Shown in pieces: positions 10,165 to 28,346 of a DNA stretch of 56,937 bases. The stretch covers positions 62,001 through 118,937 of the IMG/VR virus record IMGVR_UViG_3300035188_001352, one strand, 5' to 3'. The notes beneath the pieces are model-generated. The model saw nothing but the letters and a program-made list of their open reading frames with translations. It was not told the origin of the DNA and did not search any database. This DNA is from an uncultured virus (IMG/VR IMGVR_UViG_3300035188_001352) (Duplodnaviria; Heunggongvirae; Uroviricota; Caudoviricetes). The position numbers and the translations under genes are program-made. Numbering within the stretch: position 1 is the stretch's first letter; every line of letters begins with the position of its first letter.

Positions 10165-10292
10165 ACACATACATAGCATAAAAGTTGAACAAAAAGAAGA
10201 CTTCGGAAACTGGCCACGCAATGGGCCAGAAGATTCGCCAAATGAAAGATAACCGAAAATCAGTCGGTCCGACCTTTATGCTATGTATGTGT
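10165..10292 (-). ncRNA. Y-RNA/Yrl-like RNA 1 (no T-loop)
   Basis: 18-bp terminal inverted repeat; core GGTCGGACCG..GATTTTCGG-TTATC...CCGAAGTC-TTCTTTTT-GTTCAAC. Confidence 0.6.
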
Positions 10293-10298
10293 ATAAAA

Positions 10299-10375
10299 TG
10301 GCGACCCCAACCGAACTTGAATCGGTGGCCTCTTGCGTGACAGGCAAGCGCTCTAACCAGCTGAGCTATGGGGCC
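10299..10375 (-). tRNA. tRNA-Asp(GTC)
   Basis: Canonical cloverleaf, CT-GTC-AC loop, G73-CCA. Confidence 0.95.
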
Positions 10376-10381
10376 ATTGTT

Positions 10382-11116
10382 CTAAAGTTGTTCGTATTTT
10401 TCACGAACGGTTTGCAAATGTTTTTCATCCATGACTTTACCGAAAGTATTCACAGCCAAGAAAGCTGCATACTTTTCCTTTTCAGATGGTTCTTCCAAAG
10501 TACCCATCGACACACCATAATCTTCAAAGTGGTATTTGTCACTTCTTGAAAGTTCCGAAAAGTAATAGCCTTTGTATTGAAAACGGTCTTCGTAAAACTC
10601 AATCAATGCCGTCAAACGTTGTTTGCCATCAATAACTTCATAACCTTTGTTATCTACTTCAAATGGAACTTTAGCAAATACGAACAGACCGATGGTGACA
10701 TTGTTGAAGATTGAATCAATCAACTTTTGTTTGTCTTCCAATGTCCATACGTATTCACGTTGGTATTCAGGAGTAAAATCAACACCCGCATAATCACCAA
10801 CAACCATTCGTAACAGACCTTCAATGTTGCGATTTGATTGATTCATTCGAAAACGAATCGGTTGTTTCAAGCTTGTTTTTGGTAAATCTTCACGAATCTT
10901 ATACAATTCGTGCCATGCAACTTGAGATTCTTGGGTATAAGGAACTTGTGTTCCATAGTTGTTTTTCATACCCGAAGAATAGACTACATACATTCCACCT
11001 TCAAGGGCTTTTCTAACTACTGAATGTGTATGATTACCAAACTCTACGTCTTCACCTTCTTCAAAAGAACGTGTTGGTTTGAAACCATCTCTTACCCGCC
11101 AGTCGAAGTCTTTCAT
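10382..11116 (-). CDS. DUF262 (ParB-like) domain protein
   Basis: PEYQREYVW, LIDSI, VIDGKQRLTAL, F-x-x-VN motifs. Confidence 0.85.
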   Translation of the reverse strand: MKDFDWRVRDGFKPTRSFEEGEDVEFGNHTHSVVRKALEGGMYVVYSSGMKNNYGTQVPYTQESQVAWHELYKIREDLPKTSLKQPIRFRMNQSNRNIEGLLRMVVGDYAGVDFTPEYQREYVWTLEDKQKLIDSIFNNVTIGLFVFAKVPFEVDNKGYEVIDGKQRLTALIEFYEDRFQYKGYYFSELSRSDKYHFEDYGVSMGTLEEPSEKEKYAAFLAVNTFGKVMDEKHLQTVREKYEQL

Positions 11117-12006
11117 CTTAGTTCACTCTACGTTTGTTTGAATATGTGTCTATTATACAACAGTTCTAGTAAATGTAAACGGTTATTTTTGTGAAGCAGT
11201 TATCATTTACGAATATAAAATGTCAATTTGTCCAAACAATCCGATTCTTCTATACGTGGAATAGAAGTATAAGCAAACTGCTTTTCAATTCGTATCGGTC
11301 TATTCAAAAAGTTGTATAAGAGCATTTGCTGTTCAGTTGAAAGTTCCATGCCATTTACTCGATACACTGGAGCAACCCAACCACCACTACCATTTATCCA
11401 ATCACCACAAGCTACATTTTCAATACGATTAGGAGAAACTCTAAGCCAAGCTCGCAAGGCTCCTGCTGCATCTTCTTGTTCTTCTTGTGCAATGTTAGCA
11501 TTCCACCATTGTTGAATGTCTGGAGCAGCTGTCATTTCTCTGACAATCGAAACATAAGTACTCATCCCTCTTTATCCTCAGCTTCATTTTCGTTATACAT
11601 CTGTCGAGCATCAGAATAGCCATTCCAATTATCAACACCACAAGCTCGTAAGCAATCAAGAAAATCAGAATCTTCTACAAGTTCTTCAAAAAACTTTTTA
11701 GAAATCGTAATAGTTGCCGGCTCTTTTGCTTGTTCTGACATATTTCCTCTTGTGAAAGTTATTATGTAATAAGTTTTTAGTTTGAATGACGTCTATCTCC
11801 AAAGTAGACAGCAAGGCAAAGAACTAAAGCCATCACAACAAATAATCCAACACCAATCAACTCTTGGTGTTGTGCTTCTGCAATTTGCTCTGGTGTTTTA
11901 GCTGGTTGTTCTATAGAACTAGTTGTATCATCAACTGCAGCACCCCAAAACATTATACTTTGAGCATTCGAAAAATCTACTGGCATCTCATTTCCTCTGA
12001 TAACTT

Positions 12007-12080
12007 TGGAGCGGGATAGGGTAGTCGAAACCCTGTAGATGGAGTGGAAGTCCATTGCCTGACCGCTAGGCTAATCCCGC
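12007..12080 (-). tRNA. tRNA-Gly(TCC)
   Basis: GCGGGAT acceptor, CT-TCC-AC loop, U73-CCA. Confidence 0.9.
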
Positions 12081-12086
12081 ATTATT

Positions 12087-12162
12087 TGGTGGAGAATAGC
12101 GGACTCGAACCGCTCAGGCTAGGATCTTGCAAGGATCCTCCGGGTGCCCATGCCCATCCCCC
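12087..12162 (-). tRNA. tRNA-Ala(TGC) with atypical D arm
   Basis: G3:U70 pair, CT-TGC-AA loop, A73-CCA. Confidence 0.85.
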
Positions 12163-12216
12163 ATAAATCGAACCTGGCTATTTGTATTTGCACCGCCAGG
12201 AGGTGCCCCCATATTA

Positions 12217-12332
12217 GTTGATAAACAAAAATCGAAAGTTCAAATAAAGTTGTACCACACATTCAAGGCGGGAGTCGAACCCACAACTACTTTTTAGCAG
12301 AAAGAGATAATGAACTCTCAGCGGTTTATCAA
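12217..12332 (-). ncRNA. Y-RNA/YrlA-like RNA 2 (with T arm)
   Basis: TTGATAAAC-CG-CT-GAGAGTTCA-TTATC...GTGGG-TTCGACT-CCCGC...TGAACTTTC-GATTTTT-GTTTATCAA. Confidence 0.7.
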
Positions 12333-12561
12333 AATCTATTATACCATACTTTCTCTCAGAAGAGAGCAAAATATCAATAATACGGTGTTCGTAATATGTT
12401 ATTTACATTCTTCAAATTTTCTAACAATTTGTCAAGTGCTTCTTCTTTAGTTTTTCCAGTACCACTTACTTGCACCATACCTTGATACTGCTGTCTGCAA
12501 GTCCAACGTTTAGTATTGCTATCTTGACTATATACGTAATTCATATTCTCGTACAATAAAG

Positions 12562-12687
12562 ATTATTTTGTTAGTTACATCGCCTTACGTGCTTAGCCTG
12601 AGAAAGCGTTTATCGGTTTTACCAGCACGCCCAACGGAACAAAGAGGATGTCTCAGTTACTAACCTCACTATAACTAACAAAATAAT
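12562..12687. ncRNA. Structured RNA closed by a 16-bp inverted repeat
   Basis: ATTATTTTGTTAGTTA/TAACTAACAAAATAAT enclosing a GC-richer non-coding core with CTGAG/CTCAG pairing. Confidence 0.5.
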
Positions 12688-12689
12688 GT

Positions 12690-13316
12690 CTATAAATCTT
12701 TCAATATCAATCTAACATCTTTCTTTTCAGAAGAATAATCCTTCCCCCAAACTCTTGTATCATAATCCCAATCTTCTTTACCTTGATGAACTACAATATT
12801 CTTTTCGATATAAACATCTTTTGCAATATCAATAAGGTCAACGGTTACATCCGTCATTGCACTTATCTTAGCCCAAAGTTTTCTTGCTCCAAAGTATTGT
12901 ACTTCATCACCCATTAATTGATGTTTTAGAACTTTCAAAAAGTAACGATACATTTGAAGTGCTATACCATAACATCTAACATTTTCTCTAACCTGTACTT
13001 CATCAACATTTAGAAAAGATTCTCCAACTGATTTGACTGGAGTAAGTGTCATCTTGAAAATAACATCAAGTTTAGTTTCTTTTTCTTTTCCTCTTTTTGT
13101 CAAAATATCTTTAGTTTCAAACTTACCCAAAACATAATGATGATTAGATTTCATTTTATAAAGCTCCATATTTCCAATAGGAGTTCTTATATCACTTATC
13201 TTATCATAAAATTCGAATAAACCTGTTTCAGATAAAAAACCAAGAGAATAAATACCGGGCTCCCAGTTTCCAAAAGCCGCTATAGCATTCATTTCTAATA
13301 GTTTATTTACCCGCAT
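12690..13316 (-). CDS. GNAT-like protein with putative capsid-targeting N-terminus
   Basis: V-x-V-x-ENVRCYGIALQMY...GD-x-x-Q-x-x-GARKLW; start re-assigned to MRVNKLLE. Confidence 0.55.
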   Translation of the reverse strand: MRVNKLLEMNAIAAFGNWEPGIYSLGFLSETGLFEFYDKISDIRTPIGNMELYKMKSNHHYVLGKFETKDILTKRGKEKETKLDVIFKMTLTPVKSVGESFLNVDEVQVRENVRCYGIALQMYRYFLKVLKHQLMGDEVQYFGARKLWAKISAMTDVTVDLIDIAKDVYIEKNIVVHQGKEDWDYDTRVWGKDYSSEKKDVRLILKDL

Positions 13317-13817
13317 TTTTGCTCCAAAGTTTTTCAAGAAGTGTTTCGTATTCTTTGTTCAAATACTTTTCAACCAATAAACAGAATACTTCTTGTTGTT
13401 CTTTTGTCGCAAATCTAAACTCATTGACATATTCATCATGTTCAATCAAATCAAATTTAGTATTACGCCAGAAATGACTACATAACAATTTGATACCAGG
13501 ACAATCATATGTTTCAACAACATATGGCTTGTCAATTTCAAATGCTTTATATCTGTCAGTCATTCAAAGTAAATCCTAATTCCAACAAAATCTTTTTACC
13601 TTCTTCAGAAGCTTCCTTGACTGCAAGCTCTAAGTTTGATAGAGGGAAGCCAGCAAAACCACCGCAATTTTCGCATTTTCCAAGGATAAATGAAGTATGA
13701 AACCCACCTTGTAATGGAAATCCTTCATGATGTGTTGACCTTTTGAAAGAAATATTACCTGGGCATTCACAAAGCTTACCCACATTTGGCTTTTCAACTA
13801 CTTTCTTCTTAACCCAA

Positions 13818-14642
13818 CTAAACATCAGCCTTTACTCCTCGTTCTCTATTAGTTTCAAACTTGAACCATTCAGTCATAATTAATTCAACATCGTGGTCAT
13901 AAAAACCTGAACAGTTAATGCAATTGAACTCAACTACCTTAACAACACCATCTGGTCCAAGAAGTGCAGTGTCCATAACACAACAACTATCTGGTAACCA
14001 AATGTCTGCAAGCTCTTGAGCTTCTTCAGTGATACGTTGATCAGTAACTCTTTGCTTTATTAACCTGCCATCACAACGATATAATGACCCAGAAACAACT
14101 TTTCCATCAATGATAAACCATCGCCATTCAGCCATGATATCGTGTGGAGTGTTAACCACTATCTTCGTATCTTTTGTCAATTGAGCAGCTTTACTTGTAT
14201 CAGCCGCTAAAGCATCTAAGAAGAACTTCAAACATTCCATTTTGGTCGTAACTTCTCCAGCAAACTGCTTCAAATCAAGTACTGGTCGAATGAAGATACG
14301 TTCTTCGAGTTCATGATCTAACACTGTCGATAAGTAATCGACATATTCTCCAACCGTCGTGACCAGTTCTCCATTCAACATATCGGTTCTGTTCTTTAAC
14401 GCTACTTCATAATCGAAATTGTCATTAAAATGGACACCCTGCCAGCCAAGTTCTTTTGCTTTCAAAGTTAACGACGTTGAACCATACGGAATGTATGCAG
14501 TTCCCACAAGTTCGTTATCAGAACTTATTTCATGAGAGAATGGAATAATACCAATACTCTCAAAAGGTAACTTGTCAAGAACTGGAACTAGCAACTGCAA
14601 CTGGTATTCTGAAATCAGGTTTGTCTGAAACATGAACTTCAT
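13818..14642 (-). CDS. ATP-grasp protein (DUF4343/R2K-like)
   Basis: IFIRP-x-x-DLKQFAG, EWRWFII, VMD...KVVEFNCINCSGFY; start re-assigned downstream of tRNA-Ser. Confidence 0.8.
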   Translation of the reverse strand: MKFMFQTNLISEYQLQLLVPVLDKLPFESIGIIPFSHEISSDNELVGTAYIPYGSTSLTLKAKELGWQGVHFNDNFDYEVALKNRTDMLNGELVTTVGEYVDYLSTVLDHELEERIFIRPVLDLKQFAGEVTTKMECLKFFLDALAADTSKAAQLTKDTKIVVNTPHDIMAEWRWFIIDGKVVSGSLYRCDGRLIKQRVTDQRITEEAQELADIWLPDSCCVMDTALLGPDGVVKVVEFNCINCSGFYDHDVELIMTEWFKFETNRERGVKADV

Positions 14643-14659
14643 TTGAGTTTCCTTAAAAT

Positions 14660-14750
14660 TGGCGGAGAGCGGGTGCACTTGAAGCCCAAACCATTTCTGG
14701 TTCCCACAGTTTTCAAGACTGGTCCGGCGCGCCTGTCCGGTTCACTCTCC
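14660..14750 (-). tRNA. tRNA-Ser(TGA)
   Basis: CT-TGA-AA loop, long variable arm, G73-CCA. Confidence 0.85.
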
Positions 14751-15407
14751 ATAATTCTTTCGCTATTTCAAAATCTTTATGACTTCGAATGCTTGTTCTT
14801 CTGTAATGCCCACTTCTTCTAACTTGGTTGAAACTTCTCTAGCTTTTTTCAACCAAGATTGATGTTCATGACCAATCCAATTGTGTCTTTCATTTTTTAC
14901 TTCATAATACCAACTACAACCATCAGTATGATTATGCTTGCATAATATGCCATGCAATCGAATTGCTAATTGTTTGAGCGGGTCGTTATTATCAATTTCT
15001 GCTTGAGCTTTTTCAGCTGCTTCTTTTTCTTCTTTTATCAGCTTTTCAAGCTCTGCTTTATGTTGTGCTAATTCTCTTTCCAATTCTGCTATTCTGTTAG
15101 TGCTCATCGTTATTACTCCTCTATTCATCAAAATTAGTAGTGAGTTTCCACTTGATTTCATCAGCTAATTGTTTTGCAATATCAGCACGTTTATTCATCG
15201 AACCCTGTTCATTTTGCAAAATATTCAATACTTCTAACAATACCTTATTAGCTACTTCCTGTATTGCATCACTTTGTTCTGAATCAGTTTCACTTACAAT
15301 CTTATCAATTATGCTAGTCATCGTAATCACCTGTTCATCAATTTATGGTTCTATTATAAACAGTTTTTTATAAATGTAAACACTTATTTAGTACAGACTT
15401 CACAATT

Positions 15408-15689
15408 TTACTCACCATGATATTGCCATAAGACTGCATTACAAACTGCATGAACTGCTCCAATAGTCATACCAGTATCATGAGCATGGTGTAGATGAAC
15501 TGGCCATTTGAAAAAGTTCGGTGGAAATAACGTTCTATCAATTCGCTTCCCAATCATTTCTTTAGAAGCTTTACCATCTAATGGTTGTCCACAATGACAA
15601 CACTTACCTTCCTGAAGACGAACATATTCTTCTCGAACTAACCTACGTTGAGCTGAAGATATCTTATCGTAATTGACTGGTAATTGCAT
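15408..15689 (-). CDS. Small HNH/endonuclease VII-like protein
   Basis: Q-x-G-x-CCHC...HLHHAHDTG...GAVHAVCN. Confidence 0.65.
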   Translation of the reverse strand: MQLPVNYDKISSAQRRLVREEYVRLQEGKCCHCGQPLDGKASKEMIGKRIDRTLFPPNFFKWPVHLHHAHDTGMTIGAVHAVCNAVLWQYHGE

Positions 15690-15709
15690 ATCAATCTCTT
15701 TCTAAAATT

Positions 15710-15783
15710 TGGTAGGACCAGAAAGAGTCGAACTTTCATTGACGGATTATCGGTCCGGCATTCTACCATTGAATTATGGTCCT
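15710..15783 (-). tRNA. tRNA-Ile(GAT)
   Basis: AGGACCA acceptor, CC-GAT-AA loop (C33), A73-CCA; 5' end overlaps the endonuclease stop. Confidence 0.9.
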
Positions 15784-16419: not shown

Positions 16420-16443
16420 AATAATCTCACAATCGAAAATTAT

Positions 16444-16451
16444 TATTTATA
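16444..16451 (-). promoter_or_regulatory. T4-type late promoter TATAAATA
   Basis: Exact match, 3 nt downstream of the truncated tRNA-Ile anticodon. Confidence 0.7.
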
Positions 16452-16454
16452 CAG

Positions 16455-16860: not shown

Positions 16861-16959
16861 TGGTGGTGGAGTATCCTGGTAACGCTCACAGGTGGTGACA
16901 GTCGCGAACAGTCACAGAGCTTCACGGGCTCTACCGCCTCTTTAGCGGCTTACTACTCC
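16861..16959 (-). tRNA. Atypical tRNA with GTG (His) anticodon, long variable arm and CCACCA end
   Basis: AGAGC-CC-GTG-AA-GCTCT; variable stem GTGAC/GTCAC; T-loop AGCGTTA; A73; no G-1. Confidence 0.65.
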
Positions 16960-16964
16960 GAAAA

Positions 16965-17637: not shown

Positions 17638-17712
17638 TGGCATCGCGACGGGGAGTTGAACCCCGCTTGTCGGGTTGAAAACCCGATGTCCTAACCGATA
17701 GACGACCGCGAT
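17638..17712 (-). tRNA. tRNA-Glu(TTC)
   Basis: TT-TTC-AA loop, G73-CCA. Confidence 0.9.
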
Positions 17713-17718
17713 ATAATT

Positions 17719-17806
17719 TGGTGGGGAGAGAGGGATTCGAACCCCCTGTGTTTCTGTGTGCCTGGGTTACAGCCAGGTGCCCTTCCGCCGTCAGGACAGT
17801 CTCCCC
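17719..17806 (-). tRNA. tRNA-Tyr(GTA)
   Basis: CT-GTA-AC loop, long variable arm, A73-CCA. Confidence 0.9.
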
Positions 17807-17819: not shown

Positions 17820-17920
17820 TCAGGATAGTAGGATTCGAACCTACGTCCCGGCATCGGGCTATATTCTCGTTAGAAAACATAGTCCAAATGCCGTGCTAAA
17901 CCAACCTCAGCTACACCCTG
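17820..17920 (-). tRNA. tRNA-Pro(TGG) interrupted by a 28-nt insert (17856..17883)
   Basis: C1:G72, A73; removing the insert restores CGGCA-TT-TGG-GA-TGCCG; acceptor extended by ACATACT/AGTATGT. Confidence 0.75.
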
Positions 17921-20199: not shown

Positions 20200-20276
20200 T
20201 GGTGCATCGGGAGGGAGTCGAACCCTCAAAACCGGGCATCTTAAACCCGTACGTATGCCAATTCCGTCACCGATGC
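20200..20276 (-). tRNA. tRNA-Leu(AAG), short variable loop
   Basis: CGGGT-TT-AAG-AT-GCCCG; Leu-type D arm GACGGAATTGGCATACGT; A73-CCA. Confidence 0.75.
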
Positions 20277-20281
20277 AAATT

Positions 20282-20365
20282 TGGTACCTCTAACAGGACT
20301 TGAACCTGTACGCCATTCGGCACTTGCTCCTAAGGCAAGCGTGTCTGCCATTCCACCACAGAGGC
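20282..20365 (-). tRNA. tRNA-Leu(TAG)
   Basis: CT-TAG-GA loop, long variable arm, CCA. Confidence 0.9.
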
Positions 20366-20369: not shown

Positions 20370-20861
20370 TTACTTTTTCGACCTAAATCCTAAAGACCTA
20401 CTGTAAGATTGTAATATCATTATATCACATCTTGCTGCTTCTGTACACAAATACTTTGGGTCAGGATACACTCCAACTCGTCCTAAGTCCAACCTATCAG
20501 CATCCCAACATATCTGAGTGGTAATGTCTGCCAGAGTTGCTCCATGAGTGTGGAACATGCATGCATACCGTAAGATGCTCAGTTCAGTATCATCAAGACT
20601 AATGATACCTTTATCATTCAGTTCTTTAGCAAAATCAGCTGCTCGGTCTCCATGTCTATGATCGTGGCCATCATTCAATCGACAACTATCATGTAAGAAT
20701 GCAAACAGTTCAATGACCTTGACATTAGCTCCAGGATAGTGCGTTGCAAGTGTTAGACCATTCAACTTTACTCTTGACCAATGAGCAACTCCATGAATGC
20801 CATTCCAATCCAGTTGATACTTTTGACGAACTGTTTCAATGAGTTGCTTAGTGATGTTCAT
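20370..20861 (-). CDS. HD-domain phosphohydrolase
   Basis: HG-x-x-HW-x-RV, LHDSCR, DADRLDL. Confidence 0.85.
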   Translation of the reverse strand: MNITKQLIETVRQKYQLDWNGIHGVAHWSRVKLNGLTLATHYPGANVKVIELFAFLHDSCRLNDGHDHRHGDRAADFAKELNDKGIISLDDTELSILRYACMFHTHGATLADITTQICWDADRLDLGRVGVYPDPKYLCTEAARCDIMILQSYSRSLGFRSKK

Positions 20862-21462: not shown

Positions 21463-21975
21463 ATGAAAAGAGTACTACTTTTATCACTTAGTCTTTTGAT
21501 TAGTTTTTCAGCTTCTGCAGTTATTTTACCTGCAGCAGTCGGACAAACATCAGGAGACTTAAAATTTAATGGAACTGTAGCTCCATCTTGTAATCTTATG
21601 ACTTTTGTCGATGGAACAATTACTACTTCAGCAGACCAAACTCAATTATCTTCTGAAAATTCAGGTGGTTCTCCAGCTTCAGTAAGCTTACGTGCTAATG
21701 TGAATGGATATTCTTTACCATTAGGAACGCCAATTATTATTGGTCCTAATGGAGTTTTATCTGACGCGATTGTAACTTCTTCAGCAATTGGTAATGGTTC
21801 TGATTTATTTGGCGTTGCTGTAAGTCAATTTGGACCAGATGCTGCGTCTAATACATTCTTCTTTGATGGCGGAACATACAACATTGCCGTAAATGCTAAT
21901 GTTACGCGTCAAGATGGTTCTGCTTTCCCTGCTGGAACATATCAATTAAAAATACCAGTATCTTGCACAATGTAA
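21463..21975 (+). CDS. Secreted pilin/fimbrial-subunit-like protein
   Basis: Signal peptide; GDLKFNGTVAPSC start and AGTYQLKIPVSC end; late promoter TATAAATA at 21397. Confidence 0.6.
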   Translation: MKRVLLLSLSLLISFSASAVILPAAVGQTSGDLKFNGTVAPSCNLMTFVDGTITTSADQTQLSSENSGGSPASVSLRANVNGYSLPLGTPIIIGPNGVLSDAIVTSSAIGNGSDLFGVAVSQFGPDAASNTFFFDGGTYNIAVNANVTRQDGSAFPAGTYQLKIPVSCTM

Positions 21976-21982
21976 TGTAAAA

Positions 21983-22066
21983 TAATAAGTTGAGGGATAG
22001 GGAATTTATAACCCGAAAAGATTTAATCCAGGTCCTTCTCTCAACTTATTACTGGATTTATAAATT
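21983..22066 (+). promoter_or_regulatory. Structured intercistronic RNA element (long stem plus pseudoknot or alternative pairing)
   Basis: TAATAAGTTGAGGGA/TCTCTCAACTTATTA stem; loop AATCCAG and AATTTATAA can pair with downstream CTGGATT and TTATAAATT. Confidence 0.55.
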
Positions 22067-22087
22067 ATAAAGTATAAAGGACATATT

Positions 22088-22453
22088 ATGAAACAGCATC
22101 TGATAAACTTATTTATTACCTTTTTTATATCAATCCCATCAGTATTTGCAGTAAGTGTTTTTCCAAACAAAATAACTACAACCGGAGTTATTGGTACTAA
22201 AACTCCGATTCAATTTAAAATTTATGGTCACTTTGAAACTGCTTCTATAGAATTTGTAAAAGTAATTGATTTACAAAAAAATGAAGACAAAATTATTTCT
22301 GAATTTGTTTTAGGTAAAGAGCAAGAACGAATTATTCCAATTGATATTATCATAAAAGATAATTCAAAATATTATCTTTGTGCGGTTCTAAAAGATTCTC
22401 AATCAATGAGGTTAAGAACATGCTCTATAGTTACCACAAAAGTTTCTCAATAA
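22088..22453 (+). CDS. Secreted Ig-fold, pilus-chaperone-like protein
   Basis: Signal peptide, beta-rich, SVFP start, C-terminal YLC...RTC cysteine pair. Confidence 0.45.
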   Translation: MKQHLINLFITFFISIPSVFAVSVFPNKITTTGVIGTKTPIQFKIYGHFETASIEFVKVIDLQKNEDKIISEFVLGKEQERIIPIDIIIKDNSKYYLCAVLKDSQSMRLRTCSIVTTKVSQ

Positions 22454-22857
22454 TACTATTACTTATAGTTTCAAATAATGGTTATGGCTCACCAATGATG
22501 CCAATGACTCCTCAAAACTCAATTGGTGGAGATTCTGTTAGAGGACGTGATGGAACAACATGTAATCAAGGAACTCATATTGGCCCTACATTAGATTTTG
22601 GTATTACCGGAACAAAAAATACTAATGCATCTAATAGTTCAGACCCACAAGTTATCAATAATTATTATTCTAATCAAGAATCTTCTAATAATATCGCCGG
22701 TAATGACATTGGAGTTTATGCTCGAATTGTTATTCCTATTGGAGAAGAACCTGCGAGAATTGATTGCACACAACTTTACGCTTTAGAAATAGAACGATTA
22801 AAAATGGAGTTAGAAAACATGAAAAAAGCCGGTTCTTCAGCTGTTAGTATTGAATAA
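22420..22857 (+). CDS. Secreted protein with amphipathic beta-hairpin and C-terminal coiled coil
   Basis: Signal-like N-terminus; TLDFGITG and IGVYARIVIPIG strands; IDC-x-x-LY-x-LEIERLK helix; start uncertain. Confidence 0.55.
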   Translation: MLYSYHKSFSIILLLIVSNNGYGSPMMPMTPQNSIGGDSVRGRDGTTCNQGTHIGPTLDFGITGTKNTNASNSSDPQVINNYYSNQESSNNIAGNDIGVYARIVIPIGEEPARIDCTQLYALEIERLKMELENMKKAGSSAVSIE

Positions 22858-22881
22858 ATTCATTAGTTTATTCGCATTTAT

Positions 22882-22967
22882 TGGTAGCATCGCCCGGACT
22901 TGAACCGGGATAGCCGAAGCTGGCAGATTTTAAGTCTGCTGGGTATACCTAATTCCCCCACGATGCC
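22882..22967 (-). tRNA. tRNA-Leu(TAA)
   Basis: CT-TAA-AA loop, long variable arm, CCA. Confidence 0.9.
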
Positions 22968-22977
22968 ACGTATAATT

Positions 22978-23117
22978 TGAAGTGAATGAATAGGATTCGA
23001 ACCTATGACATGCTGCTTGGATTTGGATAATCATTTTCAACGGTTCAACGTGAATTGAACAAAAACTAAAAACGCTATTTTGATGGCGGCTGCTCTACCA
23101 ACTGAGCTATCATTCAC
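22978..23117 (-). ncRNA. tRNA-like RNA whose anticodon loop is replaced by a Y-RNA-type stem (circularly permuted YrlA-like)
   Basis: 8-bp acceptor GTGAATGA/TCATTCAC, canonical D and T arms; insert TTTTT-GTTCAA-TTCACG-TTGAAC-CG-TTG-AAAATG-A-TTATC. Confidence 0.65.
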
Positions 23118-23164
23118 ATTATTCTATAGAAAAATACTATTTATTCTAATACTTTTTTATAGAA

Positions 23165-23436
23165 TGACTAGCGATTAGAACATACCTGTCTAACCACCAG
23201 TCATCAAGAACCTTTGTCTTACATCTTTTTGCAAATAACCCACATGTTTGACGATGAGTTTGAGTTATATTTGACCGACACTCTAACCACTGAGTTACTC
23301 CACCCCACTTGATACTGACGAGCTATTCAATACCAAGTGGAGGTGGAAATGGGATTCGAACCCACGACTTTCGGTTTATCATAATAGAATGATAAGATTG
23401 TGCCTATTTGCAATTGTTAAGATGCCTTCCTAGTCA
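23165..23436 (-). ncRNA. Large YrlA-like RNA (T arm precedes D arm)
   Basis: TTATC...GTGGG-TTCGAAT-CCCAT, closed acceptor-like stem TCCACC..CCACTTG/CAAGTGG..GGTGGA, then TA-ACTC-AGTGGTTA-GAGT; terminal TGACTAG/CTAGTCA. Confidence 0.65.
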
Positions 23437-23441
23437 CGTAT

Positions 23442-23640
23442 GCTGAGCGATACGAAGAAGATAACTTTGTAATAGAACTGAATACTCACATAAGAGCAGA
23501 ATATGCCTGTTCTTCTACTTCCCCACAAAATATTCTATGTTGATAAAACACTTTGTGGGGAAGGATGGACTCGAACCACCACATCAATTCTAAAACGATT
23601 TACTACAATAATAAAGATAAGTTTGGCTCGTTTGTTTTCT
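23442..23640 (-). ncRNA. YrlA-like RNA, degenerate; ends approximate
   Basis: TTATC...GGTGG-TTCGAGT-CCATC followed by CTTCCCCACAAA/TTTGTGGGGAAG stem. Confidence 0.55.
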
Positions 23641-24031
23641 AATCCAGGTCAATCAAAATGGTATCACCGTCTATGACCTGGACATATCTAATCATATTTA
23701 TCATACACTGAATCATAGTCAATTCAGTTAGAACTTCTATTGCTTGATAATTTCTAAAAAATGGAGATGGAACAATTGCATTTGCAAAATCCCTAAACAT
23801 ATGAGCTCTGATTACTCCAGCTTCTATTGCTTGACCAACAGTTTCAAATACTACTTCATACACAGAATAATCAGAAAGCATATCAGGTACAATACCAGAA
23901 TATTCTGATATGACTTCTTTTAGATTTTCCATTGTAACTTCTTTAGAAGATTTTGCAAACTTCCAAATAACTTGGCCTATACCTTCAGGTCTGTACATCG
24001 AATTTTCTCTCCACTTTATTTCACAATTTGG

Positions 24032-24104
24032 TAAAAGTACAACTAAAAACGCTTATGGGTTTGTATCTTAACGGGATAATCCATTAGCTCCGGTTGAACT
24101 TTTA
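24032..24104 (-). ncRNA. Minimal Y-RNA-like RNA
   Basis: AAAAGTTCAAC-CG-GA-GCTAATGGA-TTATC...CCCATAAGC-GTTTTT-AGTTGTACTTTT, directly behind an early promoter. Confidence 0.6.
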
Positions 24105-24146
24105 TTTGTATCTATTCTATCATGCTTTTTAGTCAATGTAAACGGT

Positions 24147-24911
24147 TTATTTGAAGACATCCAAAATCAAGTTTGCAATCGTGTTACCGATTTTTTCGTT
24201 GATGACTTCAACAGAGTTTGCACGCTGTCTTGCTTGTTTGGTTTCAACCAACAATTCATCAAGAATTGCAATTGCATCTGCTTTTTGCTTGGAAGTAGCA
24301 GCACCAGAAATCAAACGACGTTTGAATGTTCCAACAACTTTATCGGCAGTCACTTTTTCAATTTGAGCTGGATGTTTGTCAGTTGCTTCATACAAGACCA
24401 CAGCAGTCATTGTCTTTTCAGTTTTGCTGGTGACTTCTTCACCTGTCGTTACGAACTCGCCTTTACGACCATTGTCAGTTACTTTCCATTCTTTAGACGC
24501 ATCCAAAGTTGGAACCGTATCCATCACATTACGCAATGTTTGCAGACGAGTTTCAAGACCAAGCAATTCATCAACCGGTACATTAGGTACTAATACTTGT
24601 CCACGGAACAACAGGTCAGCATTGGCAATTTGGTTAGTACGATTTTTTGCAAAAGTGATGTCTTCGGCTTTTGCCCAGAAGTCAAACACATATTCAAGAG
24701 TTTCAGGGACTGTAGTTGGCAAAGCTTTTTCGTCACGAGCAGCTTCTTCAATTGCAGCATTTTCCGGAGAATCAACCAACATTTTCAATGTTTTGATATG
24801 ACCTGCAAAAAACTGGTCTTTACGGAATTTGTTGCTAGTGTCATCCAGTAATTTTGCAACTGCAGTGTTACGAGTTTTTTCAACAGCTAGGATTTCGTGG
24901 AGTTTTGTCAT
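24147..24911 (-). CDS. Conserved phage hypothetical coiled-coil protein
   Basis: MTKLHEILAVE..., YEATDKHPAQ, ARQRAN motifs; GAGG RBS. Confidence 0.7.
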   Translation of the reverse strand: MTKLHEILAVEKTRNTAVAKLLDDTSNKFRKDQFFAGHIKTLKMLVDSPENAAIEEAARDEKALPTTVPETLEYVFDFWAKAEDITFAKNRTNQIANADLLFRGQVLVPNVPVDELLGLETRLQTLRNVMDTVPTLDASKEWKVTDNGRKGEFVTTGEEVTSKTEKTMTAVVLYEATDKHPAQIEKVTADKVVGTFKRRLISGAATSKQKADAIAILDELLVETKQARQRANSVEVINEKIGNTIANLILDVFK

Positions 24912-25321
24912 TTTGATTTACCTCTTGTGATATGTTTATAAGTATTACGATAAAGTTGTATTATATACCAGATTTCTTACGTAGATGATATCTTAGTGTA
25001 AGAAGTTTTTCGCGAAAGTCTACATAATACCTGTCTTGTTCAGTTGCAAGTACATCAGTGACTACACTTCGTGGGTCATGATTATGCATATCATATTCAG
25101 TCTGAACAATATAACCAGCGGGATTGATAGCCTCAATGGACTCAAGTGGAACATAGATGTCTTCAACTAAAGAAAGAACTGCGCTAATCAGGTCTGATTC
25201 AGACACATTGATAGAAACTATCTGTTGTTGAGTACCACGAATTTGAACTGCCATATAAAAGACTCATAAGGTTTTAAGATTATGAGTCTATTATAACAAG
25301 CAGAAGGACTAAAGTAAACGG

Positions 25322-25498
25322 TTATTTTTGCGGAAGTTGGTTTTGGTCAGGAACAGGTGGTGCATTGCCATGACGATGACTGTATTCATTGCGATGATAG
25401 CCAGACGGTTGTTTTGAACCATCATCTTGATAGACACTTGTTGTTCCACACGCAGTAAGAACCATCGTGATTGTGATTAAGATAAGTAGAGCTTTCAT
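25322..25498 (-). CDS. Small lipoprotein (58 aa, not in ORF track)
   Basis: Hand translation MKALLILITITMVLTAC, with lipobox. Confidence 0.6.
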   Translation of the reverse strand: MKALLILITITMVLTACGTTSVYQDDGSKQPSGYHRNEYSHRHGNAPPVPDQNQLPQK

Positions 25499-25767
25499 AT
25501 GTTATTGTGCCATTGGAAAAAGATGTTTGATTATTTTGTCAATAAAAGAACGATGTTCATTATCGACAAACTGTAAGCGAGATTCAAGCTTCTTGATTTT
25601 CATTTGAGCTATACGTAATTCTTCAGTGAGTTCTTCAATTTGTTCGTTCTTGCTTTTTACTGCATATTGAAGAACTCGCAAAAAGTCTGCATACTTACCC
25701 CAAATGCCATCCTTGCATTGCTCCATAGGACCAAACTTCCAGAAGCCTTGATTGTATCGGTTCATCA

Positions 25768-26061
25768 CTACTTTGCAGCTTTTTCTGGTCCGCCCCATAC
25801 GATTGGAGTAGAAGTGACATAACGAAGACCAATATTGATGATAGTCAAGATTTGAGCTTGCATACCTTCATCCATGACATAACCGTACTTGCTCTGTAAA
25901 AAGAATGCTACAAAAGCTAACAAATTTACCCAGATTGTCTTGCTTTGAATGATGCGCTTCGCGTCCTGCATATCAATCTTGCCATCATCAAGAATACCCA
26001 ATGTATCAAGTTGATTAGGTTTTGTGATTTCTTCTGTAGTGTCAGGTTTTTGAGTGTTCAT
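25768..26061 (-). CDS. Holin-like membrane protein
   Basis: IIQSKTIWVN..two TM segments..LRYVT-x-x-PI; late promoter at ~26098-26105. Confidence 0.55.
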   Translation of the reverse strand: MNTQKPDTTEEITKPNQLDTLGILDDGKIDMQDAKRIIQSKTIWVNLLAFVAFFLQSKYGYVMDEGMQAQILTIINIGLRYVTSTPIVWGGPEKAAK

Positions 26062-26121
26062 ATCGTTATCTCCATATAAGTGTATTTGGTTATACCACTA
26101 TTTATGGAGATAGTATGAAAA

Positions 26122-26198
26122 TGGTAGGCCGGGAGGGATTCGAACCCGCTGTCTTCACCTTATGAGGGAGTTGCTTATACCGCTTAAGCTTCCGGCCT
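26122..26198 (-). tRNA. tRNA(CAT), probably Ile2
   Basis: AGGCCGG acceptor, CT-CAT-AA loop, imperfect anticodon stem, A73-CCA. Confidence 0.75.
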
Positions 26199-26575
26199 GA
26201 AAAGGTTATTGACTTATTTCATTATTGCGACGTAAGCAGTATTTACCACCAACTTCATCTGCAATGATGAAGCCATTTTGGCTGTCACAAGTACGTCTAA
26301 ATTCCATGTCTTTCATGGCTTTTTCGTAATTGAAAACATAAAGACCAACAATGAGTGCGAAAATAATTGCAAGGCTAATAAGAATACGTTTCATCATGAT
26401 AGTTCTCTCTCTTCGTAGTTATAGTTGATAAGTAGTGACTTGGATGTCACGAGTTTCACTTGATTCTGAAGGACATTGTATACTAGTTTTTTCAGAATGT
26501 AAACGGTTAATTAGCAAATGCATATAAAAAATCAATCCAAATACAATGACATGAAGAGCAATGATATATGCTTTC

Positions 26576-26923
26576 TTAGTCATCATAATGATGACTATTA
26601 TAATGACCGTGGTGATGTCTATGTTCTCCGCTACGGTAAGAAGTATATCCTCTATAGTAGTATGGACGATGATACACTACTGGAGGTGCATAATAGTGAT
26701 GCTCATACACTACAGGAGGTCTAACATAGGTTGGAACTGAAAATGTAATGCTTGGAGAATTGTAAGTATTCCCAAGTGGGATTGTGATACTACCAGAAGA
26801 CGGTTGTTGATAATATCGTGGCGGTTGAGTATCATAATAGTAATCGCCATCATAAGCATGAATAGACATGCTCGTCATAAAACCGATTATTCCTAACAAT
26901 GCTCCTAATTGATAACGTTTCAT
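26576..26923 (-). CDS. Secreted Pro/Tyr/His-rich protein
   Basis: Signal peptide MKRYQLGALLG; PPVVY repeats; late promoter at 26952-26959. Confidence 0.6.
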   Translation of the reverse strand: MKRYQLGALLGIIGFMTSMSIHAYDGDYYYDTQPPRYYQQPSSGSITIPLGNTYNSPSITFSVPTYVRPPVVYEHHYYAPPVVYHRPYYYRGYTSYRSGEHRHHHGHYNSHHYDD

Positions 26924-27562
26924 TATATACTCTCCTTTATTATCTAAAAGGTATTTATAGCCAGCTGCTATACAATCTATGACTATACGGAACAATGTCA
27001 TCTAACAATTGAGCACCATTGATATTGCAATTCCAAAAATCCAAAAGAACTTGACGATTGAGCTTGATAAAACCTTCAACCAGTTCAAATCGTGGTTTTG
27101 TCATGATAACATCAAATGGCCCTTTGACATATGAATGTCCAAAGAAGAATGATGTTAGTTCAGATGAAGTATCAACAATGTCGCCATCATGAATAGCAAT
27201 ACGAATTCTTGGACCATTGTCGTCTGATACACAGTTCTTAGTTAGAGCAAGTGATACCATTGGAAGATTTGTCTTTTCACGTGGCAAATCAAACATCAAC
27301 CACTTGTCATTCAAAGTACCATCGATTGTTGAGAACCTAAAACGTTCTTCTTCCATATTAGTCTTCATAAGGTTCAAGCTCATAGTTATCTGCATCTTTA
27401 CCCAAATGTTCAATTGACCATTCTACGAAATCACGGACTTCCAAATAGTCGCCAAACCATCCATAAGTGCGTGCAAGCTCAACTAAGTCAGCTATTAGCG
27501 CATCAGGATTGCTTTGTATGTTAGCAGTAATCATTACTCTATTCCTCGTGTGTTGTTATGAA

Positions 27563-27693
27563 AGGATTGACTGAAAGGGGGTTCGAACCCACTACCTACC
27601 TCATGCGGACTTACAGGCGCCACTTATCTGTTAGGAATCGAACCTAACCCCCTGCCCTAGCTGAGATGCTCTGCCGATTAAGCTATTCAGTCA
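27563..27693 (-). ncRNA. tRNA-like RNA with a second T arm inserted in the anticodon position
   Basis: TGACTGAA/TTCAGTCA acceptor, D arm, TCTCA/TGAGG stem enclosing GTTAGG-TTCGATT-CCTAAC, then a normal T arm. Confidence 0.65.
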
Positions 27694-27899
27694 TTACATC
27701 TGATATGTTCTGGATTTTCGTCTTCATATGGTCGCCAAAAATCCAGAAAGTCTTGCGAAAAGCTGTAATCTCCAATGCATTGTATCACATTTTCTGAGGT
27801 TTGTCTAGAAATGTCTAAGTATTTTAGCAATGGCATAATGCTAAACAACAGAAGTACGATAAGAAATAATTGGAGATTGATTTTCATTTCCTACATTTC

Positions 27900-28346
27900 C
27901 TACAGTTCCTCAATCGCAGACTTAGCAAATACTGAAGCAGCTTTACCATCATACTGACCAGCATAGTTAGACTTCAAGTATGCCATAATCATACCAATTG
28001 ATGGTGTCTTATCTGCATCAACGACAAACTTGGCAATGATGTTTTCAAGCTCGATGTTTGACATTTGCTTTGGCAGATAACTGTCCAAGATTGCAAGTTC
28101 GCGTTCGGTCACGATAATCTTATTAACATCTTCAACTCGTTCGAAGACATCAAGCATTTCAAGAGCACCGGTCTTGAACTTAGTCAAAACTTTCAGTACT
28201 TCTTCGTCAGTACTTTCACGACTGCCATCGTCTTTACCAGGACGAGAAGCTTCGCCTAACAAAGTTGTTAGATACACTGCTTCAGGCGCTTTAGCCTTGC
28301 GAGCTTCAAGCGAACGGTCTTTGATTTGTTGTAGTAATGAAGTCAT
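27900..28346 (-). CDS. GatB/YqeY-domain protein
   Basis: SLLQQIK..ARKAK, TDEEV, E-x-x-IL-x-x-YLPKQMS, YAGQYDGK. Confidence 0.85.
   Translation of the reverse strand: MTSLLQQIKDRSLEARKAKAPEAVYLTTLLGEASRPGKDDGSRESTDEEVLKVLTKFKTGALEMLDVFERVEDVNKIIVTERELAILDSYLPKQMSNIELENIIAKFVVDADKTPSIGMIMAYLKSNYAGQYDGKAASVFAKSAIEEL

What the first reader, a model, noticed from the sequence alone, without database searches (positions are those of the whole stretch)
10165..28346. Integrated translation-rescue region
Seen together: about 14 tRNAs, several with unusual anticodon loops (C33 in the Ile and GTG tRNAs, A34 Leu, masked Pro), Y-like RNAs, tRNA-like RNAs, a putative attenuator, an R2K-like ATP-grasp, an HD phosphohydrolase and a YqeY protein. 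Known: hosts use anticodon nucleases against phages, and phages counter with tRNAs and RNA repair. Inference: one sense/replace/decoy/repair system against tRNA-targeting immunity.
Basis: inference. Interest (0 to 1): 0.7.

Follow-up and report, generated by a model that had tools for sequence, protein, structure and literature searches.

The report
Phage tRNA and Y-RNA gene island
This stretch of a giant freshwater phage is an island of transfer-RNA genes mixed with several tRNA-shaped small RNAs, some probably partners of the phage's Ro60 protein, and unrelated accessory genes, not one integrated system against tRNA-cutting defences.

Summary
I found 12 ordinary tRNA genes and 7 tRNA-derived RNAs in 10165-28346. 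C33 is present in tRNA-Ile and in a GUG tRNA-like gene, A34 in tRNA-Leu(AAG), and tRNA-Pro has its anticodon masked by a 28-30 nt hairpin. The R2K ATP-grasp and YqeY proteins are confirmed, the HD protein only weakly. No attenuator could be identified.

The reading as one sense/replace/decoy/repair system is not supported:
- The three proteins assort independently in other phages.
- No RNA ligase, RtcB or kinase is present.
- The tRNA set simply matches the phage's A/T-ending codons.

The stretch is the downstream part of a 36-kb tRNA and small-RNA island of a T4-like jumbo phage.

The odd RNAs belong to conserved families:
- Permuted YrlA-like Y RNAs. Relatives encode Ro60/Rsr (4 of 5), once 3.6 kb away.
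- A homologue of phage T5 stable RNA 'rna2', a tRNA with a second elbow in place of the anticodon loop.
- An 'H-type' tRNA-scaffold RNA. Its relatives lie beside Ro60 genes in 15 of 79 viral loci and in 0 of 86 control loci.

The last point suggests an undescribed, unpermuted kind of Y RNA.

The parts
10299..10375 (-). tRNA-Asp(GUC), CCA encoded
12007..12162 (-). tRNA-Ala(UGC; G3:U70, odd D-arm, missed by Rfam) and tRNA-Gly(UCC)
12216..12345 (-). Y-RNA-like element 2. The 5' and 3' ends form a long stem around a T-arm, and a -10-like TATAAT lies upstream. The support is weak.
   Evidence: YrlA 19.9 bits; fold z -1.5; sequence; not checked in relatives
13818..14678 (-). R2K-clade ATP-grasp protein (predicted peptide ligase acting on proteins)
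   Evidence: Pfam R2K_3 E 9e-18, R2K_2 E 7.5e-16; phrog_7313; passages of PMC4431377
14664..14750 (-). tRNA-Ser(UGA)-like, long variable arm, imperfect T-arm, GCCA end
   Evidence: tRNA-Sec model 31 bits; read
15710..15783 (-). tRNA-Ile(GAU) with C33
16864..16959 (-). GUG tRNA-like RNA. It has an acceptor stem plus ACCACCA, a D-arm, the loop CCGUGAA (C32 C33), an extra arm with a UUCGCGA loop and an odd last arm. A -10-like box lies upstream.
   Evidence: missed by ARAGORN and Rfam; fold z -0.27; no DNA match in 5 relatives
17638..17806 (-). tRNA-Tyr(GUA) and tRNA-Glu(UUC)
17820..17920 (-). tRNA-Pro(UGG) with a 28-30 nt hairpin insertion after position 37 ('masked Pro'); no CCA encoded
   Evidence: the G001 orthologue lacks the insertion; the hairpin is unique in the window
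20200..20365 (-). tRNA-Leu(UAG) and tRNA-Leu(AAG; A34, short variable arm)
20370..20861 (-). Small HD-superfamily protein (weak assignment)
   Evidence: no Pfam or NCBIfam hit; homologue in G001 inside its tRNA island
22882..22967 (-). tRNA-Leu(UAA)
22982..23116 (-). H-type tRNA-scaffold RNA. It is a full tRNA body whose anticodon loop is replaced by a 68-nt conserved module: a long-range helix, a hairpin and an invariant GUUAUC. It is a candidate Ro60-linked RNA.
23268..23380 (-). YrlA-like Y RNA 1. It is a circularly permuted tRNA: anticodon-like stem open, then T-arm, closed acceptor hairpin and D-arm.
   Evidence: YrlA 25 bits; conserved with compensatory changes in L006 and L007; fold z -5.8; 120-nt RNA-library contig of depth 302 at 23212-23294
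23440..23585 (-). Permuted tRNA-like RNA 3: T-arm, then a long closed acceptor-like hairpin, then a D-arm-like part
   Evidence: covarying hairpin in L006 and L007, read by eye; fold z -5.1
26122..26198 (-). tRNA with CAU anticodon and two mismatches in the anticodon stem
27568..27692 (-). rna2-type RNA, a homologue of phage T5 misc_RNA 'rna2'. It is a tRNA body with a second T-loop hairpin and the GGGY/RUCC helix in place of the anticodon loop.
27900..28346 (-). YqeY/GatB-C-terminal-like protein, next to the rna2-type RNA here and in close relatives
   Evidence: Pfam YqeY E 1e-15; phrog_1460; synteny

Best explanation
The region is the downstream two-thirds of a roughly 36-kb tRNA and small-RNA gene island. 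The host genome is a T4-like jumbo phage from lake water (a 119-kb contig, about 35% of the genome). The island is a mosaic of separately promoted small genes.

(1) Decoding tRNAs.
- There are about 23 on the contig, most with CCA encoded. All 20 amino acids are covered only if the weak or non-canonical Ser, His and Pro genes are counted.
- Their U34 and A34 anticodons match the phage's A/T-ending codons.
- They most likely keep phage translation supplied. Inferred from the literature, they may also make it less dependent on host tRNAs that are scarce or cleaved.

(2) tRNA-derived structured RNAs that use the tRNA frame for processing and stability and carry another module where the anticodon loop would be.
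- Two or three are permuted YrlA-like Y RNAs. One is an H-type RNA. These most likely bind a phage Ro60/Rsr protein encoded beyond the contig end. By analogy with known Ro60-Y RNA particles, they would direct an RNA-decay or quality-control particle (inferred).
- One is the rna2-type RNA known as a stable RNA of T5. Its function is unknown and does not depend on Ro60.

(3) Unrelated accessory proteins: R2K, HD, YqeY, a gp5.9-like protein, NADAR and a DUF262 protein.

Shown: gene content, conservation, RNA structure covariation and genomic linkage.
Inferred: Ro60 binding, any anti-defence role and lack of splicing.
For: Phage type and size:
- gp23, gp20, gp15 and sheath domains.
- Contig size and completeness estimate.
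- Lake and freshwater sequencing runs hold the region.

tRNA set:
- tRNA list.
- Third codon positions are 76% A/T over 25,173 codons.
- Leu-AAG pairs with CUU (23% of Leu codons), Thr-AGU with ACU (55%), UAA with UUA (35%), UCU with AGA (36%), and so on.

Promoters: 92 promoter-like sites, against 66.7 +/- 10.1 in shuffles, mostly on the minus strand.

YrlA-like RNA 1:
- Conserved in L006 and L007 with compensatory changes in both stems.
- The L007 orthologue scores 34.5 bits, E 5e-5, full length, on Rfam YrlA.
- It lies 3.6 kb upstream of a 541-aa TROVE ORF.
- Known Ro-adjacent RNAs of cultured phages score only 35-59 bits on the same model.

TROVE (Ro60/Rsr): present in 4 of 5 relatives.

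H-type RNA:
- Model R2 gives 103.5 bits in the window.
- There are 26 long hits in 15 of 79 Rsr loci, all on the Rsr strand and most within about 1 kb.
- There are 0 hits in 86 control loci, 357,762 bases.
- There are none in G005, which lacks Rsr.
- On the model-fitted alignment 89.4% of cells are paired, against 61% in shuffles and 35-48% when slid.

rna2-type RNA:
- Model R1 gives 80.6 bits in the window, 108 for T5 rna2 and 107 for G001. Everything else scores 35 bits or less.
- The Y/R pair in the GGGY/RUCC helix is UA in 13 and CG in 6 sequences, with 0 broken. The inner hairpin keeps its pairs in 19 of 19.

Expression hint: in an RNA-library run, a 120-nt record of depth 302 with adapters at both ends lies at 23212-23294. 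A second study shows depth 109 in the bin 22895-23508, against 30 or less elsewhere.
Against: - Ro60 is not on the window's contig, so its presence in this phage is only inferred from relatives.
- The outer, Ro-binding stem of YrlA is poorly matched.
- The CGAA motif is in the window's copy but not in its two orthologues.
- H-type RNAs were not found next to Ro in 3 of 3 cultured phages checked.
- Three H-type-bearing fragments show no TROVE (G000, G009, G010).
- The R2-fitted alignment leans towards its own structure.
- Contig-level RNA data cannot show RNA ends, strand or splicing, and RNA libraries may hold DNA.
- YqeY sits next to the rna2-type RNA in 3 related phages and R2K lies 570 nt from one in L094. 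Some local protein-RNA partnership is therefore not excluded.
- The host is unknown, so codon compensation could not be tested against host usage.
Confidence: 0.7

Rival explanations
1. The tRNAs, tRNA-like and Y-like RNAs, R2K, HD and YqeY act together as one system. It senses tRNA cleavage, replaces cut tRNAs, decoys the nucleases and repairs RNA.
For: - All parts lie in one island.
- In the nearest relative G001, YqeY, HD and a remnant of R2K are also inside the tRNA island.
- A cREC (cyclic-phosphate processing) domain protein lies in the upstream part of the island.
- The literature supports tRNA replacement and RNA repair as phage counter-measures (passages of PMC7824862, and of PMC10264068).
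- C33 and A34 are departures in the anticodon loop, the region that such nucleases read.
Against: - Independent assortment: R2K matches 61 records, YqeY 54 and HD 6. R2K and YqeY share 11 records and there lie 35-220 kb apart. HD shares none.
- In G005, R2K and YqeY lie far from the tRNAs and HD is absent.
- The G001 R2K has 2 stop codons.
- There is no RNA ligase, RtcB or kinase on the contig, and RtcB is absent from 5 of 5 relatives.
- The proposed decoys lack anticodon loops.
- R2K enzymes are predicted to ligate peptides to proteins (PMC4431377).
Confidence: 0.08
2. The insertion-bearing genes are intron-containing pre-tRNAs. They are spliced to working tRNAs, at least tRNA-Pro, by an unknown phage or host activity.
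For: - Removing 28 nt from the Pro gene leaves a normal UUUGGAA loop (ARAGORN intron call).
- The insertion sits at the canonical 37/38 place.
- The G001 orthologue has no insertion.
- No other tRNA-Pro is on the contig.
Against: - Inserts of 28-68 nt are far too small for group I introns, and no intron family matched.
- For the rna2 type, excising the conserved module would always leave C at position 37 and no U33 (read).
- T5 annotates the full 125-nt form as a stable RNA.
- The H-type and rna2-type modules are conserved in sequence and structure across distant phages, which is unlike introns.
- An RNA-library contig spans the unspliced Pro gene (record 29). This is weak evidence, since it may be DNA or precursor.
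Confidence: 0.12
3. The odd tRNA-like genes are decaying pseudogenes or insertion scars with no function.
For: - The GUG element and Y-like element 2 fold no better than shuffles (z -0.27 and -1.5).
- No homologue of the GUG element was found in 5 relatives.
- The Pro hairpin is unique to this phage.
Against: - Three families show covariation and wide conservation.
- Folds of YrlA-like 1, element 3 and Pro(i) have z -4.9 to -5.8.
- -10-like boxes lie upstream.
- There is high depth in RNA libraries over 22.9-23.5 kb.
Confidence: 0.05

Closest known systems
tRNA gene clusters of large lytic phages (T4, T5, KVP40-like), including the proposed role against tRNA-targeting defences (PMC10264068; PMC11464382; PMC11555353)
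   Same: - Many tRNA genes on one strand, interspersed with small ORFs and homing-endonuclease-like genes.
- CCA is encoded.
- Anticodons fit phage codon usage.
- The anticodon loop departs from the norm (C33, A34).
   Different: No test of nuclease resistance was possible and the host is unknown. This island also holds at least five non-decoding tRNA-derived RNAs.
Bacterial and phage YrlA Y RNAs with Ro60/Rsr (Rfam RF02553; PMC4201824; Thermus phage phiLo Ro60, PMC12135203)
   Same: - A permuted tRNA-like domain with T-arm, D-arm and closed acceptor.
- Two or three such RNAs in tandem.
- Relatives encode Ro60, once 3.6 kb away.
- The score range is like that of Ro-adjacent RNAs of cultured phages.
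   Different: - Scores are below Rfam's gathering score (25 and 19.9 against 69).
- The Ro-binding stem is not recognisable.
- Ro60 is not on this contig.
- The RNAs sit in the tRNA island, not beside Ro60 (about 50 kb away in G001).
Phage T5 stable RNA 'rna2' (misc_RNA, AY692264.1 32962-33086)
   Same: - Same architecture and invariant motifs.
- R1 scores are 108 (T5) and 80.6 (window).
- Both lie in a tRNA region.
   Different: It sits in a T4-like jumbo phage next to a YqeY gene. T5 has no YqeY or Ro60. The function is unknown in both.
T4 Pnkp/Rnl1 and RtcB tRNA repair against PrrC-type anticodon nucleases
   Same: A cREC domain protein and an HD protein could in principle process RNA ends.
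   Different: No ligase or kinase was found on the contig, and RtcB is absent from 5 of 5 relatives. The fragment covers only about 35% of the genome.
tRNA introns (bacterial group I; archaeal/eukaryal bulge-helix-bulge)
   Same: An insertion in the anticodon loop; in tRNA-Pro it lies at position 37/38.
   Different: The inserts are too short for group I introns and no intron family matched. Two of the inserts are conserved functional-looking modules, not variable spacers.

Membership tests
Canonical decoding tRNA (Rfam RF00005) | Cloverleaf scoring above the gathering score, with a 7-nt anticodon loop | tested here: met
   - Ten tRNAs score 47-67 bits with no insertion.
- Ala and Tyr are found by ARAGORN only.
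- Three further matches (35-45 bits) have 30-68 extra bases in the loop, so they fail the 7-nt loop feature.
Canonical decoding tRNA (Rfam RF00005) | U33 before the anticodon | tested here: not met
   Not met for tRNA-Ile (C33) and the GUG element (C33). Met for the other 22 loops listed.
YrlA / bacterial Y RNA | tRNA-like domain: T-arm, closed acceptor stem-loop, D-arm, ends in the anticodon-stem position | tested here: met
   Element 1: the fold reproduces the domain, compensatory changes are seen in 2 orthologues, and the match covers model positions 23-85.
YrlA / bacterial Y RNA | Score at or above Rfam's gathering score (69 bits) | tested here: not met
   The scores are 25 and 19.9 bits, and 34.5 bits for the L007 orthologue. 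Ro-adjacent RNAs of 3 cultured phages also score only 35-59 bits.
YrlA / bacterial Y RNA | Encoded beside a Ro60/Rsr (TROVE) gene | tested here: inconclusive
   - No TROVE on the 119-kb contig.
- TROVE is present in 4 of 5 relatives, 3.6 kb from the orthologous RNA in G002 and about 50 kb from it in G001.
YrlA / bacterial Y RNA | Ro60-binding stem with the conserved CGAA-type motif, and binding to Ro60 | tested here: inconclusive
   CGAA is in the window's copy but GGAA is in both orthologues. The outer stem is poorly matched. Binding cannot be tested with these tools.
Phage T5 rna2-type RNA | tRNA frame plus the GGGY/RUCC helix, an inner T-loop hairpin and the invariant GUAAR-UCCGCA | tested here: met
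   R1 gives 80.6 bits, against 35 or less for plain tRNAs. Covariation is shown.
H-type tRNA-scaffold RNA (defined here) | tRNA frame plus a long-range helix, a hairpin and the invariant GUUAUC in place of the anticodon loop | tested here: met
   R2 gives 103.5 bits. The window sequence was a seed of the model, so it matches by construction. Independent members were found, and the structure counts are.
Phage tRNA repair (Pnkp/Rnl or RtcB pathway) | An RNA ligase together with end-healing kinase/phosphatase | tested here: not met
   No such Pfam family matched in the 198 ORFs scanned. RtcB is found in 0 of 5 relatives. T4-type Rnl families were not searched in the relatives.
Group I intron in tRNA | Self-splicing fold of about 200 nt or more in the anticodon loop | tested here: not met
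   The inserts are 28-68 nt, and no intron family matched at E<=5.
Bulge-helix-bulge tRNA intron | Two 3-nt bulges around a 4-bp helix at the exon-intron junctions, and a splicing endonuclease | not tested
   I only inspected the Pro insert by eye. No dedicated search was made for the motif or the endonuclease.
R2K-clade ATP-grasp | Match to R2K family models over the catalytic module | tested here: met
   R2K_3 E 9.1e-18 and R2K_2 E 7.5e-16. The catalytic residues were not inspected.
YqeY / GatB C-terminal domain | Full-length match to PF09424 | tested here: met
   E 9.8e-16 over residues 6-143 of 148.
HD phosphohydrolase superfamily | H...HD...D metal-binding motifs and similarity to HD-domain proteins | tested here: inconclusive
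   The motifs were read. PDB HD hydrolases match at E 0.0025-0.66. There is no Pfam hit at E<=0.01 and no NCBIfam hit.

The most novel reading that the evidence does not exclude
The H-type RNA (22982-23116) represents an undescribed class of Y RNA. It is an unpermuted tRNA, with open acceptor end and intact D- and T-arms, whose anticodon loop is replaced by a conserved module that binds phage Ro60.

Together with the permuted YrlA-like RNAs next to it, it would form a phage-encoded Ro60 particle that redirects host RNA decay or quality control during infection.

The tRNA island would then be partly a store of tRNA-framed effector RNAs. The rna2 type, shared with T5, would be a second, Ro60-independent kind.
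Probability: 0.4. Interest if true: 0.7.

Novelty: new variant of a known kind. Interest (0 to 1): 0.55.

Why it matters
Phage tRNA islands are usually read only as codon-supply or anti-nuclease devices. Here a sizeable share of the 'tRNA genes' are not decoders. They are conserved tRNA-framed RNAs.

- One family is shared with the model phage T5, so it is directly testable in laboratory E. coli.
- Another family is genomically tied to Ro60 genes in many uncultured phages, yet public models call its members only 'tRNA'. If they bind Ro60, the known repertoire of Y RNAs widens, and it becomes clearer how Y RNAs arose from tRNAs.

The work also shows that co-location in such an island is not evidence of a common system.

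Tried and rejected
- Megablast of the whole region against 50,697 phage records: no match.
- Blastn of an H-type RNA against the same records: only a T-arm match.
- Reads: four runs were laid (3 RNA, 1 DNA, all as contigs).
  - No joint skips any of the three inserts.
  - The joints listed join tRNA-like parts of other organisms or also occur in DNA.
  - Contigs cannot show ends or splicing.
- Search for the GUG element in 5 relatives: nothing.
- The Pro hairpin as a repeated mobile element: only 1 copy in the window.
- YqeY or R2K as general neighbours of the rna2-type RNA: YqeY in 3 closely related loci and R2K in 1, out of the 106 pattern loci L015-L120 searched. Rejected as a general link.
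- The rna2 type beside Ro60: 0 of 79 loci.
- RtcB in relatives: 0 of 5.
- TROVE in two further H-type contigs, two rna2-type contigs and T5: 0 of 5.
- RNAalifold on the 7-sequence MAFFT alignment of H-type RNAs gave no usable inner structure. I replaced it with a hand-written structure and a model-fitted alignment.
- Literature:
  - Searches for T5 stable RNAs and for phage tRNA introns found no paper on these RNAs.
  - Searches on YrlA and Ro60 in phages found none describing an unpermuted tRNA-framed Y RNA.
  - The library lacks most subscription journals and the 1980s T5 papers.
  - The supplements of PMC4201824 (the phage YrlA list) and of PMC10264068 were not opened and may bear on novelty.
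- No 'attenuator' could be identified.

Full report
**Where the window lies.** The window is bases 62001-118937 of a 118,937-base IMG/VR virus record, judged 35% complete. Pfam places the phage among T4-like myoviruses: gp23 capsid, gp20 portal, gp15, tail sheath, prohead protease and T4-type terminase. Lake-water and freshwater metagenomes from 16 studies hold the region. Megablast against 50,697 phage records found nothing.

**The observation.**
- ARAGORN finds 10 tRNAs in the window, 9 of them inside the finding.
- Rfam adds a CAU tRNA (26125-26198) and three tRNA-model matches with 30, 68 and 58 extra bases in the anticodon loop (17820-17920, 22982-23116, 27568-27692). It also gives a weak class-II hit that reads as tRNA-Ser(UGA) at 14664-14750.
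- A stem-loop scan found the 'GTG tRNA' at 16864-16959. It has an acceptor stem followed by ACCACCA, a D-arm, the loop CCGUGAA and an extra arm. Both tRNA finders miss it.
- C33 in tRNA-Ile, A34 in tRNA-Leu(AAG) and the masked anticodon of tRNA-Pro are as described.
- R2K (E 9e-18) and YqeY (E 1e-15) are clear.
- The HD protein (20370-20861) is supported only by its motifs and weak matches to HD hydrolase structures.
- I could not locate the 'attenuator'.
- The tRNA island is larger than the finding. On the whole contig it runs from 54.4 to 89.7 kb, with 24-25 ARAGORN genes.

**The decoding tRNAs.**
- Twenty of the 24 genes listed encode CCA.
- Over 25,173 codons of ORFs of 150 aa or more, 76% of third positions are A or T.
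- The phage anticodons pair with its commonest codons. The two A34 tRNAs pair with CUU (23% of Leu) and ACU (55% of Thr).
- Codon supply therefore explains the set, including A34, without invoking nucleases. It does not exclude that reading.
- The literature shows that phage tRNAs can rescue infection from tRNA-cleaving defences. I saw passages of PMC10264068 and of PMC7824862, and only the search-listing abstracts of PMC11464382 and PMC11555353.

**The proteins do not travel together.**
- By tblastn against 50,697 phage records, R2K matches 61 records, YqeY 54 and the HD protein 6. Rows were listed for 60 of 61, 54 of 54 and 6 of 6.
- Eleven records hold both R2K and YqeY, always 35-220 kb apart. 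None holds HD together with either.
- Among five viral relatives, only G001 holds all three. There the R2K match covers residues 128-276 and carries a TGA and a TAA.
- G005 has R2K and YqeY far from its tRNA cluster and no HD.
- No RNA ligase, RtcB or polynucleotide kinase family matched the 198 ORFs scanned on the contig. RtcB is absent from 5 of 5 relatives.
- R2K enzymes are predicted peptide ligases acting on proteins (passages of PMC4431377).

**YrlA-like RNAs.**
- Element 1 (23268-23380) is a circularly permuted tRNA: an open anticodon-like stem, a T-arm, a long closed acceptor hairpin and a D-arm.
  - Its fold has z -5.8.
  - Orthologues in L006 (G001) and L007 (G002) keep both stems through changes on both sides.
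- Element 3 (23440-23585) has a T-arm and a long closed hairpin that also covaries in the two relatives. I read this; its fold z is -5.1.
- Element 2 (12216-12345) is weak (19.9 bits, z -1.5).
- Rfam's YrlA model gives 25 bits in the window and 34.5 bits (E 5e-5, full length) in L007. Both are below the gathering score of 69.
- The Ro-adjacent RNAs of ScottMcG, TunaTartare and BONAISHI also score only 35-59 bits.
- TROVE (Ro60/Rsr) ORFs of 530-569 aa occur in 4 of 5 relatives.
  - In G002 the ORF starts 3.6 kb downstream of the YrlA-like RNA, on the same strand.
  - In G001 it is about 50 kb away.
  - By synteny that position would fall beyond the end of the window's contig, which has no TROVE.
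- Phage Ro60 with Y-like RNAs is known (PMC4201824 and PMC12135203, passages).

**The rna2-type RNA.**
- The 125-nt gene at 27568-27692 has a complete tRNA body. In place of the anticodon loop it carries a 4-bp helix GGGY/RUCC, a second hairpin with a UUCGAUU loop, a conserved AUGG and an invariant GUAAR-UCCGCA.
- A pattern scan hit 95 viral stretches. Of these, 42 loci with 31 distinct sequences have the full frame.
- One of them is phage T5, where record AY692264.1 annotates it as misc_RNA 'rna2', beside other misc_RNAs.
- Megablast finds the T5 form in 377 phage records.
- On 19 diverse members, RNAalifold keeps the Y/R pair as UA in 13 and CG in 6, with none broken. The inner hairpin is kept in 19 of 19.
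- Model R1 scores 108 (T5), 107 (G001) and 80.6 (window). It scores 35 or less for everything else in 1.34 Mb, including 0 of 79 Ro60 loci.
- T5 has no TROVE.
- YqeY is its neighbour only in three closely related loci.
- Excising the module would always leave C37 and no U33, so this is not an intron.

**The H-type RNA.**
- The 135-nt gene at 22982-23116 is a tRNA body with a 68-nt module: an A-rich lead, a long-range helix, UUUGU, a hairpin, CCG and an invariant GUUAUC.
- Eleven seeds from seven records gave model R2.
- On the seed alignment my structure pairs 77.4% of cells, against 60.5% in shuffles (0 of 500 reach it) and 31-50% when slid.
- Long hits of about 59 bits or more number 1 on the window's contig, 3 in G001, 3 in G002, 2 in G007, 3-4 in G008 and none in G005, which lacks Ro60. 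The three in G002 lie directly upstream of Ro60.
- In 79 loci fetched around Ro60 relatives (992,020 bases), R2 finds 26 hits of 119-144 nt in 15 loci. All are on the Ro60 strand and 11 loci have one within about 1 kb. Two further hits are plain tRNAs.
- In 86 loci not chosen for Ro60 (357,762 bases) it finds none at the same threshold.
- Rfam calls these Ro60-adjacent RNAs only 'tRNA', and no YrlA reaches the gathering score in 10 such loci.
- On the model-fitted alignment of 38 hits, 89.4% of cells pair and all six pairs of the long-range helix show double changes. That alignment leans towards the model.
- Against the link:
  - 3 of 3 cultured Ro60 phages lack the H type.
  - Three H-type-bearing fragments show no TROVE.
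  - Binding is untested.
- Another note of this scan (e1-5471844) reports a Y-RNA-like arm in giant-virus tRNA genes. I did not check it.

**tRNA-Pro and the GUG element.**
- The Pro insert is a unique 10-bp hairpin. It is absent from the G001 orthologue.
- Whether it is spliced, tolerated or disabling is open.
- The GUG element has no detected relatives and folds no better than shuffles.

**Expression.** Only contigs of runs were available. Three signs hint at abundant small RNA from the Y-RNA cluster:
- a 120-nt RNA-library record of depth 302;
- adapters at both ends of that record, at 23212-23294;
- depth 109 in the bin 22895-23508 in a second study.
They prove neither ends nor strand.

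**Verdict.** The single-system interpretation is not supported. The region is a tRNA and small-RNA island. Its most interesting content is a set of conserved tRNA-framed RNAs. One family, the H type, is linked to Ro60 genes and appears undescribed in the papers I could search.

Noticed in passing
window 21463-22857 (+ strand): Three ORFs on the opposite strand interrupt the island. They have signal-peptide-like starts and no Pfam hits.
   Followed up: no
window 278-1225: ARAGORN joins a 3' tRNA half (T-arm at 289-305 with a CCA end) to the CAU tRNA at 1151-1225 across 866 bases. That span holds a 263-aa ORF on the + strand. It could be an orphan tRNA half or a disrupted gene.
   Followed up: no
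contig 6.6-17.1 kb and 21.6-28.5 kb (L001 6647-17054; L002 2647-9517): Two runs of about 15 and 10 back-to-back ORFs of 157-312 aa (most 211-248 aa) have no Pfam match. They look like a large tandem gene family. Paralogy was not checked.
   Followed up: no
window 11562-11741 (-): A 59-aa protein matches the T7 gp5.9 RecBCD-inhibitor family (E 1.3e-18). Nearby are a NADAR protein (9502-10089) and a GmrSD_N/DUF262 protein (10382-11116).
   Followed up: no
contig 56419-56754 (L003 18419-18754, -): A cREC_REC (cyclic-phosphate processing receiver) domain protein lies in the upstream part of the tRNA island (E 4.8e-16). It is the only RNA-end-processing candidate seen.
   Followed up: no
contig 55641-55716 and 58621-58692: Two further A34 anticodons lie outside the finding: tRNA-Thr(AGU) and a weak tRNA-like gene with AUG (His codon CAU, 83% of His codons).
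   Followed up: partly
L006 13129-13243 and T5 RNA1 (L121 4973-5116): These are class-II Leu-like tRNA genes with a hairpin insert next to an intact CUUAAAA loop sequence. They are another kind of interrupted tRNA, shared between G001 and T5.
   Followed up: partly
L007 13700-13810: Between two H-type RNAs and Ro60 in G002 lies a further tRNA-like gene: acceptor stem plus CCA, a T-arm and an irregular middle. No tool calls it a tRNA.
   Followed up: no
window 23400-23440 and L006 about 11230-11270: A conserved hairpin (stem CGUAU/AUACG) lies between permuted element 3 and YrlA-like element 1, in the window and in G001. It may be a terminator or a processing site.
   Followed up: no
window 1610-1954, contig 48387-48644 and 51981-54164: Metabolic-looking genes sit in a phage: aspartate decarboxylase (PanD, E 2e-41), a FeoA domain protein and a 727-aa di-haem cytochrome c peroxidase-like protein.
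   Followed up: no
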